This document shows positions 11,369 to 13,187 of a stretch of DNA of 64,000 nt, piece by piece. Within the stretch, counting starts at the first letter, position 1, and each line of letters opens with the position of its first letter. Below the pieces are notes generated by a model. The model was not told the DNA's origin, did no database searches, and saw only the letters and a list, made by a program, of their open reading frames with translations. The translations under genes were made by a program, and so were the position numbers. Origin of the DNA: Eledone cirrhosa (Eukaryota); NCBI GenBank assembly GCA_964016885.1, contig OZ024746.1, forward strand, positions 43,524,001 through 43,588,000. The letters run 5' to 3'.

Positions 11369-13187
11369 GAATATAGACATAGAATATTCGAAAATATTCT
11401 GTATGTTTATAATAAACATTTTGAAGACCTAATCGCTATAGAATAGAATACGTCACGTATTACAATTAGATTCTCGATAAAAGCAAGGGAAGTAATCTAC
11501 GCGTTTCATTCTTGTTAGAAATCTTCAGGACTACATATCCAGTGCTTTTATCGAGAATGACACAGCTAGAGACTTATAGAATACTTAGCTGTGTACAGGA
11601 ACTGGTTTGAAAGAGCGGTTGCCGGTCCGGCAGAAATTAGAAATTGGAATAAATGCTCTGAAATAGCGATATATATGTGAATATAGACATAGAATATTCG
11701 AAAATATTCTGTATGTTTATAATAAACATTTTGAAGACCTAATCGCTATAGAATAGAATACGTCACGTATTACAATTAGATTCTCGATAAAAGCAAGGGA
11801 AGTAATCTACGCGTTTCATTCTTGTTAGAAATCTTCAGGACTACATATCCAGTGCTTTTATCGAGAATGACACAGCTAGAGACTTATAGAATACTTAGCT
11901 GTGTACAGGAACTGGTTTGAAAGAGCGGTTGCCGGTCCGGCAGAAATTAGAAATTGGAATAAATGCTCTGAAATAGCGATATATATGTGAATATAGACAT
12001 AGAATATTCGAAAATATTCTGTATGTTTATAATAAACATTTTGAAGACCTAATCGCTATAGAATAGAATACGTCACGTATTACAATTAGATTCTCGATAA
12101 AAGCAAGGGAAGTAATCTACGCGTTTCATTCTTGTTAGAAATCTTCAGGACTACATATCCAGTGCTTTTATCGAGAATGACACAGCTAGAGACTTATAGA
12201 ATACTTAGCTGTGTACAGGAACTGGTTTGAAAGAGCGGTTGCCGGTCCGGCAGAAATTAGAAATTGGAATAAATGCTCTGAAATAGCATTTCAAACCAGT
12301 TCCTGTACACAGCTAAGTATTCTATAAGTCTCTAGCTGTGTCATTCTCGATAAAAGCACTGGATATGTAGTCCTGAAGATTTCTAACAAGAATGAAACGC
12401 GTAGATTACTTCCCTTGCTTTTATCGAGAATCTAATTGTAATACGTGACGTATTCTATTCTATAGCGATTAGGTCTTCAAAATGTTTATTATAAACATAC
12501 AGAATATTTTCGAATATTCTATGTCTATATTCACATATATATCGCTATTTCAGAGCATTTATTCCAATTTCTAATTTCTGCCGGACCGGCAACCGCTCTT
12601 TCAAACCAGTTCCTGTACACAGCTAAGTATTCTATAAGTCTCTAGCTGTGTCATTCTCGATAAAAGCACTGGATATGTAGTCCTGAAGATTTCTAACAAG
12701 AATGAAACGCGTAGATTACTTCCCTTGCTTTTATCGAGAATCTAATTGTAATACGTGACGTATTCTATTCTATAGCGATTAGGTCTTCAAAATGTTTATT
12801 ATAAACATACAGAATATTTTCGAATATTCTATGTCTATATTCACATATATATCGCTATTTCAGAGCATTTATTCCAATTTCTAATTTCTGCCGGACCGGC
12901 AACCGCTCTTTCAAACCAGTTCCTGTACACAGCTAAGTATTCTATAAGTCTCTAGCTGTGTCATTCTCGATAAAAGCACTGGATATGTAGTCCTGAAGAT
13001 TTCTAACAAGAATGAAACGCGTAGATTACTTCCCTTGCTTTTATCGAGAATCTAATTGTAATACGTGACGTATTCTATTCTATAGCGATTAGGTCTTCAA
13101 AATGTTTATTATAAACATACAGAATATTTTCGAATATTCTATGTCTATATTCACATATATATCGCTATTTCAGAGCATTTATTCCAA
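11369..13187. repeat. 310-bp HHR-containing tandem array (family B): 3 units, then ~2.9 inverted units
   Basis: Unit starts at 11369, 11679, 11989; inversion at ~12288; HHRs at 11492-11534, 11802-11844, 12112-12154 (-) and 12367-12409, 12677-12719, 12987-13029 (+). Confidence 0.92.
12367..12409 (+). ncRNA. Minimal type I hammerhead ribozyme (family B, representative of 6 copies)
   Basis: gtagtc-CTGAAGA-t ttct aaca agaa t-GAAAC-gc-GTA-gattac; stem I gtagtc/gattac, palindromic acgcgt stem III. Confidence 0.85.

What the first reader, a model, noticed from the sequence alone, without database searches (positions are those of the whole stretch)
11369..13187. ORF-less 310-bp ribozyme tandem array: retrozyme or circular-RNA candidate
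Six apparently identical 310-bp units (3 in one orientation, ~2.9 inverted) each hold one HHR. The HHR sits inside a 16-bp stem (attctcgataaaagca/tgcttttatcgagaat), and the rest of the unit has further hairpins (acacagcta/tagctgtgt, tgtttat/ataaaca). Established: metazoan non-LTR retrozymes are tandem units of a few hundred bp that self-cleave to monomers and circularise. Inference: cleavage would release a 310-nt structured monomer, and the multimer could be cDNA from rolling reverse transcription of a circle by a PLE RT.
Basis: partly seen in the sequence, partly recalled or inferred. Interest (0 to 1): 0.75.

Follow-up and report, generated by a model that had tools for sequence, protein, structure and literature searches.

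The report
Two-armed hammerhead retrozyme, Penelope-inserted
This is one copy of a young non-coding repeat with a predicted self-cutting RNA motif that sits at over a thousand places in this animal genome as two back-to-back arrays, likely copied by a Penelope-type jumping-gene enzyme from both sides of a DNA break and probably by running repeatedly round one small RNA circle, which makes a long-proposed copying step testable.

Summary
Observation confirmed: 2.97 antisense plus 2.90 sense identical 310-nt units (11368-13188), each with a type I hammerhead motif. It is one copy of a young family: about 15,100 units and 1,100 exact end-junctions in the genome. The inverted layout is the rule. 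Of 120 scoreable two-armed loci, 118 end at two fixed internal sites mostly 26-40 nt apart, one site per arm, in (TA)n. This is the Penelope 'tail' footprint, also seen on a coding Penelope copy here. Both arms share one haplotype in 54 of 55 loci (chance about 10%). Haplotypes differ between loci, are fixed across all units, and are skewed to sense-strand A>G. None of 1,197 passes through the cut site carries a scar. Best reading: a non-LTR retrozyme mobilised in trans by a Penelope enzyme priming from both DNA ends, likely rolling round a monomer circle (0.7). Not shown: transcription, cleavage, a circle, or the partner element. This scan reported the same family and reading before on other DNA of this genome.

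The parts
11357..11368 (+). Left copy of a candidate 12-bp target-site duplication (ATATACACACAT) in an imperfect TA/CA microsatellite
   Evidence: the 12-mer occurs 7 times in 10301-14200, so weak alone; family-level 11 of 75 loci vs control mean 3.4, max 8
11368..12287 (-). Left arm, 2.97 units antisense; outer (RNA 3') end at unit position 245 = site B, beside the CAUAUAUAU tract
11492..11534 (-). Type I hammerhead motif, copy 1
11802..11844 (-). Type I hammerhead motif, copy 2
12112..12154 (-). Type I hammerhead motif, copy 3
12279..12293 (.). Central head-to-head joint: TGAAAT-AGC-ATTTCA, a 6-bp snap-back hairpin that would template the single extra A (12288); likely end-joining of two cDNA ends
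   Evidence: sequence; mechanism inferred
12289..13188 (+). Right arm, 2.90 units sense; outer (RNA 3') end at unit position 280 = site A (CCAAT)
12343..12431 (+). 16-bp outer stem (12343-12358 with 12416-12431) presenting the hammerhead; 4 of 13 core pairs differ on both sides in the sister family
   Evidence: pairs read by eye
12367..12409 (+). Type I hammerhead motif, copy 4: stem I GTAGTC/GATTAC, CUGAAGA, stem II TTCT/AGAA, GAAA, palindromic CGCG stem III, predicted cut after GUA 12401-12403
   Evidence: architecture as in PMC4209133 passages
12404..12713 (+). Predicted 310-nt monomer between two cut sites (candidate circle)
   Evidence: inferred; fold
12677..12719 (+). Type I hammerhead motif, copy 5
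12987..13029 (+). Type I hammerhead motif, copy 6
13154..13188 (+). 35-nt 'tail' (unit 246-280), terminal on the right arm only; lies between priming sites B and A
   Evidence: compare PMC8557442 and PMC11167929
13187..13198 (+). Right copy of the candidate 12-bp target-site duplication

Best explanation
The array is one insertion of a young non-coding 310-nt hammerhead repeat family whose two back-to-back arms were likely written by a Penelope-like (PLE) RT/GIY-YIG enzyme acting in trans, priming from both ends of a cut in a (TA)n tract and probably copying one circular monomer RNA several times round. Shown from sequence: dispersal, youth, two-armed layout, two fixed outer ends, (TA)n target, one haplotype per insertion, no scar at the cut site. 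Inferred steps: (1) an array is transcribed; (2) hammerheads cut after GUA, likely as dimers (palindromic CGCG stem III); (3) a host ligase closes the monomer; (4) the PLE protein cuts both target strands about 12-16 nt apart; (5) one DNA end primes at unit 280 (CCAAU, 2-nt AT match), the other on the CAUAUAUAU tract (245/254); (6) both cDNAs run round the circle for a variable number of laps; (7) the two cDNA ends are joined by microhomology-mediated end joining.
For: Family: 15,138 exact internal 27-mers, 1,100 exact site-A junctions, 806 exact copies of this hammerhead haplotype; reversed-pattern controls 0. Layout (145 loci): 120 divergent two-armed, 14 single-armed, 7 cut by the fetch edge, 4 at gaps, 0 convergent; 118 of 120 have one A end and one B end, none A/A or B/B; 39 of 40 in the loci not chosen by an end; offsets peak at 35 (52 loci) and 26 (27 loci). 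(TA)n at one or both ends in 74 of 75. A coding PLE copy (L163, RT+GIY-YIG family with a hammerhead 3' of the ORF) shows the same layout with ends about 40 nt apart. Papers: 30-40-bp tail and inverted 5' copy are PLE hallmarks; a PLE protein cleaves and extends both strands and starts RT at two internal sites bounding the tail. Monomer bottleneck: 31 haplotypes in 93 loci, 33 variants fixed across all units of a locus, 16 of them in one locus only; arms agree in 54 of 55 loci against 9.7% for random pairs; single-unit substitutions only 0.04%. Covalent template: 0 indels at unit 114-117 in 1,197 passes; 5 of 244 inner ends near the cut (8.7 expected). RNA signature: fixed A>G 10 vs T>C 3, non-fixed 12 vs 33 (Fisher p 0.002); fixed changes keep pairing 11 of 18 vs 28 of 106 (p 0.006); 0 of 33 fixed variants in core or stem III. 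Joints: 21 of 36 have 2 nt or more of microhomology (18% expected); 1 of 7,875 locus pairs shares a joint.
Against: No RNA, cleavage or circle was observed. Rfam gave no hit. No coding PLE with sequence similarity to the unit was found among 50 GIY-YIG loci. In vitro, uncleaved RNA was the dominant PLE substrate and hammerhead mutants did not stop insertion; 8 of 9 Xenopus retrozyme dimers did not cleave. Some loci are mosaic: L104 (81G in all 7 units of one arm but only the inner 2 of the other), L069 and L053 (a one-unit variant in both arms), L033, L117; these fit a mixed multimer template, template switching or later conversion. Absence of fixed variants from the core is not significant on its own against non-fixed variants (Fisher p 0.14). 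TSDs cannot be read in most loci.
Confidence: 0.7

Rival explanations
1. Same PLE twin priming, but the direct template is a linear, uncleaved multimer transcript of a homogeneous source array; monomers or circles occur only now and then or not at all.
For: PLE RT starts internally on unprocessed RNA and does not need hammerhead cleavage in vitro. Multimeric retrozyme RNAs exist in axolotl. Mosaic loci L069, L053 and L104 fit mixed multimers. A linear multimer is also scar-free at the cut site.
Against: New mutations must become fixed in every unit of both arms; 16 of 33 fixed variants occur in only one of 144 loci, and A>G at 64, 81 and 135 recurs on several backgrounds. That needs frequent passage through one unit followed by re-expansion. 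Joints are not inherited: 1 shared of 7,875 pairs, at the self-complementary stem and on different haplotypes.
Confidence: 0.17
2. Linear self-cleaved monomers are the template, and multimers arise by repeated template jumps of the RT.
For: Gives a monomer bottleneck without ligation; template jumping by non-LTR RTs is known (recalled).
Against: 0 indels in 1,197 passes of the cut site, no excess of inner ends there (5 of 244, 8.7 expected), and one haplotype kept through up to about 22 units over both arms (L094) although 31 haplotypes exist.
Confidence: 0.06
3. A solo pLTR-like unit was inserted by a PLE and then expanded locally at DNA level (unequal crossover, slippage, or extrachromosomal circular DNA), as proposed for retrozymes in the 2026 preprint.
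For: The preprint proposes local amplification. Repeated variant blocks within arms (L051, L039, L055, L094, L117) show that block duplication does occur after insertion.
Against: Both arms exceed one unit in 58 of 74 loci with almost no divergence; the opposed arms share haplotypes; outer ends stay at the priming sites; fixed variants are strand-biased to A>G. Duplicated blocks are a minority.
Confidence: 0.05
4. Assembly or chimeric-read artefact.
For: Identical units in simple-repeat flanks; no read spans this locus.
Against: 120 loci share one end rule with unique joints and locus-specific haplotypes; contigs of public run X1 show 13 listed antisense-to-sense joints at different places (run type not on record, and it may be the source sample).
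Confidence: 0.02

Closest known systems
Metazoan non-LTR retrozymes (Cervera and de la Pena 2020, PMC7229834; passages and Discussion read)
   Same: Tandem non-coding units of about 300 nt, GC 34%, one type I hammerhead per unit, strongly self-paired, coexisting with PLEs; that paper proposes RT of circles to tandem cDNA and names PLEs as candidate mobiliser.
   Different: Here arrays are two-armed and head-to-head with two fixed ends ('inverted', 'rolling' and 'microsatellite' have 0 occurrences in that paper's main text). Expression and circles are shown there, not here.
Vertebrate non-LTR retrozymes as PLE derivatives (Li, Clavereau and Pollet 2026, 10.64898/2026.07.22.740005; parts 1-3 of 5 read)
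   Same: Non-autonomous, PLE-linked, monomer to multimer arrays.
   Different: They link the two by pLTR homology and co-occurrence and suggest local amplification; here the link is the insertion footprint, no homologous pLTR was found, and the data favour multimers made at insertion.
EN+ Penelope-like elements (Craig et al. 2021, PMC8557442, passages; Arkhipova et al. 2013, PMC3846280, passages; Frangieh et al. 2024, PMC11167929, parts 1-2 of 4)
   Same: Inverted 5'-truncated copy head-to-head, 30-40-nt tail at one end, AT-rich or microsatellite targets, TSDs of about 8-10 bp reported, two internal RT start sites, action in trans on pLTR-bearing RNA.
   Different: No ORF; both arms are multimers of one short unit; one primer site is complementary to the target (AU tract), whereas the Anolis sites are reported as non-homologous to the cut DNA. 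The 2013 paper explains the inversion by self-priming; the A/B end pairing here fits two target-primed cDNAs better.
Non-autonomous Chlamys PLEs such as MRC1 (passage in PMC8557442)
   Same: Non-coding, PLE-mobilised, often multicopy head-to-tail.
   Different: They resemble the 3' ends of autonomous partners; that clade is reported to lack canonical hammerheads.
L1 twin priming (recalled)
   Same: Antisense-then-sense insertion primed from both target ends and joined by microhomology.
   Different: In L1 the second site is variable and the arms copy different parts of a linear RNA; here both sites are fixed and both arms repeat the same unit.

Membership tests
Metazoan non-LTR retrozyme | Tandem units of about 150-450 bp | tested here: met
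   310-nt period; arms up to at least 25.8 units
Metazoan non-LTR retrozyme | One type I hammerhead motif per unit | tested here: met
   6 of 6 units; no Rfam hit at gathering, so met by motif and pairing only
Metazoan non-LTR retrozyme | Non-coding, GC below about 45-50% | tested here: met
   longest stop-free stretch about 60 codons; GC 106 of 310
Metazoan non-LTR retrozyme | No LTRs; TSD longer than 4 bp when present | tested here: met
   no terminal direct repeat beyond the units; informative TSDs in 11 of 75 loci, 12 bp in 5 (control mean 3.4, max 8). PBS and PPT were not searched.
Metazoan non-LTR retrozyme | Dispersed, mobile, many loci | tested here: met
   1,100 end-junctions, 15,138 units
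Metazoan non-LTR retrozyme | Self-cleavage of the RNA | not testable with these tools
   only indirect: core untouched by 33 fixed variants; core kept with different stems in the sister family
Metazoan non-LTR retrozyme | Expressed as monomeric linear and circular RNA | not testable with these tools
   no RNA data were available to lay (see Tried and rejected)
PLE-mobilised element | Inverted 5'-truncated copy head-to-head | tested here: met
   120 divergent, 0 convergent of 134 scoreable loci
PLE-mobilised element | 30-40-nt tail at one end only | tested here: met
   118 of 120 A/B; offset 35 in 52 loci, 26 in 27
PLE-mobilised element | AT-rich or (TA)n target | tested here: met
   74 of 75 loci
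PLE-mobilised element | Sequence shared with the pLTR of an autonomous partner | tested here: inconclusive
   none among 50 GIY-YIG loci and 18 post-ORF regions, but only 150 of 10,596 candidates were scored
Autonomous PLE (or pLTR attached to one) | RT plus GIY-YIG ORF between the repeats | tested here: not met
   the window insertion and the mapped two-armed loci consist of unit sequence from flank to flank
Plant LTR retrozyme | Type III hammerhead in LTRs, 4-bp TSD | tested here: not met
   type I topology, tandem units, longer TSDs

The most novel reading that the evidence does not exclude
Each insertion records twin rolling-circle retrotransposition: a PLE dimer cuts both strands of a (TA)n site and its two RTs start 26-35 nt apart on a single 310-nt circular RNA and chase each other round it, so both arms are clonal copies of one RNA molecule, including its A-to-I edits. 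The PLE 'tail' and 5' inversion would then be one event, and the family a lineage of ribozyme circles evolving at RNA level with the genome as its archive.
Probability: 0.5. Interest if true: 0.8.

Novelty: new variant of a known kind. Interest (0 to 1): 0.62.

Why it matters
Two questions are open in the papers read: which enzyme mobilises animal retrozymes and whether circles are the template (proposed in PMC7229834; mechanism called unresolved in the 2026 preprint), and how PLEs make tandem, inverted and tailed insertions ('still undefined' in PMC8557442). A very young family with over a thousand insertions, two fixed priming sites and locus-level haplotype barcodes gives genomic evidence on both and a 310-nt defined substrate for an in vitro test. 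RT that makes long multimers from a circle at both ends of a break would be a distinct retrotransposition route. The element class is known; the value lies in the mechanism.

Tried and rejected
Rfam at gathering: 0 hits. RNA runs: no RNA holder listed; no evidence on expression either way. Runs X2, X3 and X6 each hold one 340-nt contig (310+30), which a circle and a tandem array would both give, in runs of unrecorded type labelled as other organisms; trace DNA cannot be excluded, so not used. Multimeric-circle idea from periodic variants: rejected, periodicity breaks within arms (L051, L039, L055, L094, L117); one search had spurious end-gap deletions and was redone. RT-error signature in single-unit variants: T>C 25 vs A>G 11, p 0.049, neither arm orientation significant alone; weak, not relied on. 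RT ORFs in the window as partner: 55948-58086 is RT+PHD and 42375-45979 is APE+RT, neither has GIY-YIG. Partner search: blastn of the unit against 50 GIY-YIG loci hit only a sister retrozyme (L123), a short hammerhead element (L161) and simple repeats; 18 post-ORF regions scored at or near shuffle level; 1 of 30 sister loci had a PLE protein hit, about 900 nt from the matched motif. Sigma-70 promoter scan does not apply to a eukaryote; the promoter is unknown. Inner ends are mildly non-uniform (chi-square p 0.015) but not at the cut site. In one search, 13 of 49 joints had insertions or nearby mismatches and were left out of the microhomology count. L054 (gap, diverged side piece) was left out of variant counts. 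Paper searches listed no title or abstract on two-armed retrozyme arrays or haplotype evidence for circle templates; subscription papers are not covered, and supplements (for example Fig. S9 of PMC7229834 and the preprint's tables) were not seen and may bear on this. Sequence look-up in earlier findings gave nothing.

Full report
1. Observation. The window holds an antisense arm (11368-12287, 2.97 units), one extra A, and a sense arm (12289-13188, 2.90 units) of an identical 310-nt unit, called u with position 1 at 12289. Each of the six units has a type I hammerhead motif at u79-121: stem I GTAGTC/GATTAC, CUGAAGA, stem II, GAAA, a palindromic CGCG stem III and GUA at u113-115 (12401-12403). 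This matches the canonical metazoan architecture thought to work as a dimer (PMC4209133 passages). It sits on a 16-bp stem (z -5.1); the predicted monomer folds at z -5.2. The longest stop-free stretch is about 60 codons. Rfam has no match at gathering. The flanks are an imperfect TA/CA microsatellite with a candidate 12-bp duplication, and the central joint forms a 6-bp snap-back hairpin.

2. The family. The genome is 3.0 Gb. Exact patterns count 15,138 internal units, 1,100 junctions where the unit stops at u280 and 806 copies of this hammerhead haplotype; reversed controls gave 0. I mapped 145 loci: the window, 37 from the BLAST list (biased to 100% minus-strand units), 14 from the hammerhead list, and 93 from the first 100 site-A hits, all on one contig. 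Single-unit substitutions run at 0.04% (157 in 369 kb), so the burst is recent.

3. Insertion anatomy. Of 145 loci, 120 are divergent two-armed, 14 single-armed, 7 cut by the fetch edge, 4 at assembly gaps, none convergent. Outer ends, which are the RNA 3' ends, are not at the ribozyme cut. One arm ends at site A (u280 in 107 cases), the other at site B (u245 in 54, u254 in 35), around a CAUAUAUAU tract complementary to the target. 118 of 120 pair A with B; none is A/A or B/B. In the loci not chosen by an end the figure is 39 of 40. (TA)n lies at one or both ends in 74 of 75 loci. TSDs are readable in 11 of 75 (mismatched-flank control mean 3.4, max 8), five of them 12 bp and one of 16 bp in non-repeat sequence (L048). 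Inner ends are spread over the unit, and 21 of 36 joints have 2 nt or more of microhomology against 18% expected (13 joints left out). Only 1 of 7,875 locus pairs shares a joint, at the self-complementary stem, so arrays are not copied whole.

4. The mobiliser. An inverted 5'-truncated copy, a 30-40-bp tail at one end and microsatellite targets are described PLE hallmarks (PMC8557442; PMC3846280). The Anolis PLE protein cleaves and extends both strands, is predicted to be a dimer, and starts RT at two internal sites that bound the tail (PMC11167929). This genome has many GIY-YIG matches (150 scored of 10,596 candidates) and young RT+GIY-YIG families at 95-98% protein identity, one with a 938-aa open frame and a CX4CXXC linker of the Neptune/Nematis type. 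One coding copy (L163) is itself two-armed with ends about 40 nt apart. I found no PLE with sequence similarity to u, so PLE mobilisation is inferred from footprint and the partner is unnamed.

5. The template. In the 93 site-A loci there are 31 haplotypes. Over 144 loci, 33 variants are fixed in every unit of a locus, 16 of them in one locus only. Both arms agree in 54 of 55 loci with at least two units per arm, against 9.7% for random pairs. Each insertion thus descends from one unit sequence that was then multiplied. There are 0 indels at u114-117 in 1,197 passes, and 5 of 244 inner ends near the cut (8.7 expected), which argues against jumps between linear cut monomers. Fixed variants are strand-biased (A>G 10, T>C 3; non-fixed 12 and 33; p 0.002), keep pairing more often (11 of 18 against 28 of 106; p 0.006) and avoid the catalytic core (0 of 33). 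A>G at u64, 81 and 135, each with a 5' U, recurs on several backgrounds. An older sister family (1,261 pattern matches) is about 70% identical, two-armed, often ends at the matching site, and keeps the hammerhead core and outer stem with different sequence (4 of 13 stem pairs changed on both sides, read by eye).

6. Against. No RNA was examined. Uncleaved RNA was the main PLE substrate in vitro, and 8 of 9 Xenopus retrozyme dimers did not cleave. L104, L069, L053, L033 and L117 are mosaics, which allows mixed multimer templates, switching or later conversion. Block duplications after insertion exist and are not strictly periodic, so they give no support for multimeric circles. No read spans this locus, although run X1 shows 13 listed antisense-to-sense joints.

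7. Mechanism. Transcription, dimer self-cleavage and ligation to a circle are inferred from the retrozyme literature. PLE cutting of both strands, priming at A and B, rolling synthesis and end joining are inferred from the footprint. Odds: real mobile hammerhead family 0.97; PLE-mobilised 0.9; both arms primed from target ends on the same haplotype 0.85; monomer circle as usual direct template 0.7; one single molecule for both RTs 0.5. Rivals: linear multimer 0.17, template jumps 0.06, DNA-level expansion 0.05, artefact 0.02.

8. Comparison and novelty. It meets every sequence-testable feature of metazoan non-LTR retrozymes and the PLE insertion hallmarks; it is not an autonomous PLE or a plant LTR retrozyme. 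The circle-to-tandem-cDNA step and PLE involvement are proposed in PMC7229834 and the 2026 preprint. My six paper searches listed nothing describing two-armed retrozyme arrays or haplotype evidence, within the limits of the library and without supplements. Earlier notes of this scan describe the same 310/311-nt family with the same reading on other DNA of this genome; I had recorded my reading before opening them, and they are not independent support. Verdict: new variant of a known kind, interest 0.62.

Noticed in passing
window 5845-6513 and 58790-59537: Two short two-armed insertions of a second hammerhead family (motif at 6009 -, 6349 +, 59098 -, and a variant near 59436 +), inverted arms 96-98% complementary; a related motif also lies in L146 and L164.
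   Followed up: partly
window 39756-40280: Two-armed solo pLTR in (TA)n with hammerhead motifs at 39982 (-) and 40054 (+); the same motif lies 3' of the ORF in the coding PLE family L155/L156/L159/L163/L167.
   Followed up: partly
window 35076: A further hammerhead-like motif; similar ones in L154 and L186.
   Followed up: no
window 55948-58445: RT ORF with a PHD finger after the RT domain, no GIY-YIG, ending in (GAT)n; looks like an RTE-type LINE (label recalled).
   Followed up: partly
window 42375-45982: APE endonuclease and RT frames of a LINE in two reading frames.
   Followed up: no
window 3427-3692 and 4396-4525: Two arrays of a 34-bp unit in opposite orientation.
   Followed up: no
L123, L172-L201: Older sister retrozyme family, about 70% identical to the unit, 1,261 pattern matches, different stem II and III sequences, mostly short arms.
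   Followed up: partly
L152:3809-6622 (-), L154:2775-6062 (+): Long open RT+GIY-YIG frames (938 and 1,096 codons stop to stop) of young PLE families; candidates for in vitro work.
   Followed up: partly
L104; L069; L053: Mosaic arrays: a haplotype switch inside one arm (L104) and single-unit variants present in both arms (L069, L053).
   Followed up: partly
L082:4843-5020: Complex central joint with two extra switched pieces (129 and 43 nt) between the arms.
   Followed up: no
unit positions 79-121, family-wide: Fixed variants are enriched in the hammerhead outside its core (10 of 24, p 0.0008), including insertions at u118 close to the predicted ligation site; unexplained.
   Followed up: partly
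public runs X2, X3, X6: One 340-nt cyclic-type contig of the unit in each of three runs labelled as other organisms; trace DNA or real presence not resolved.
   Followed up: no
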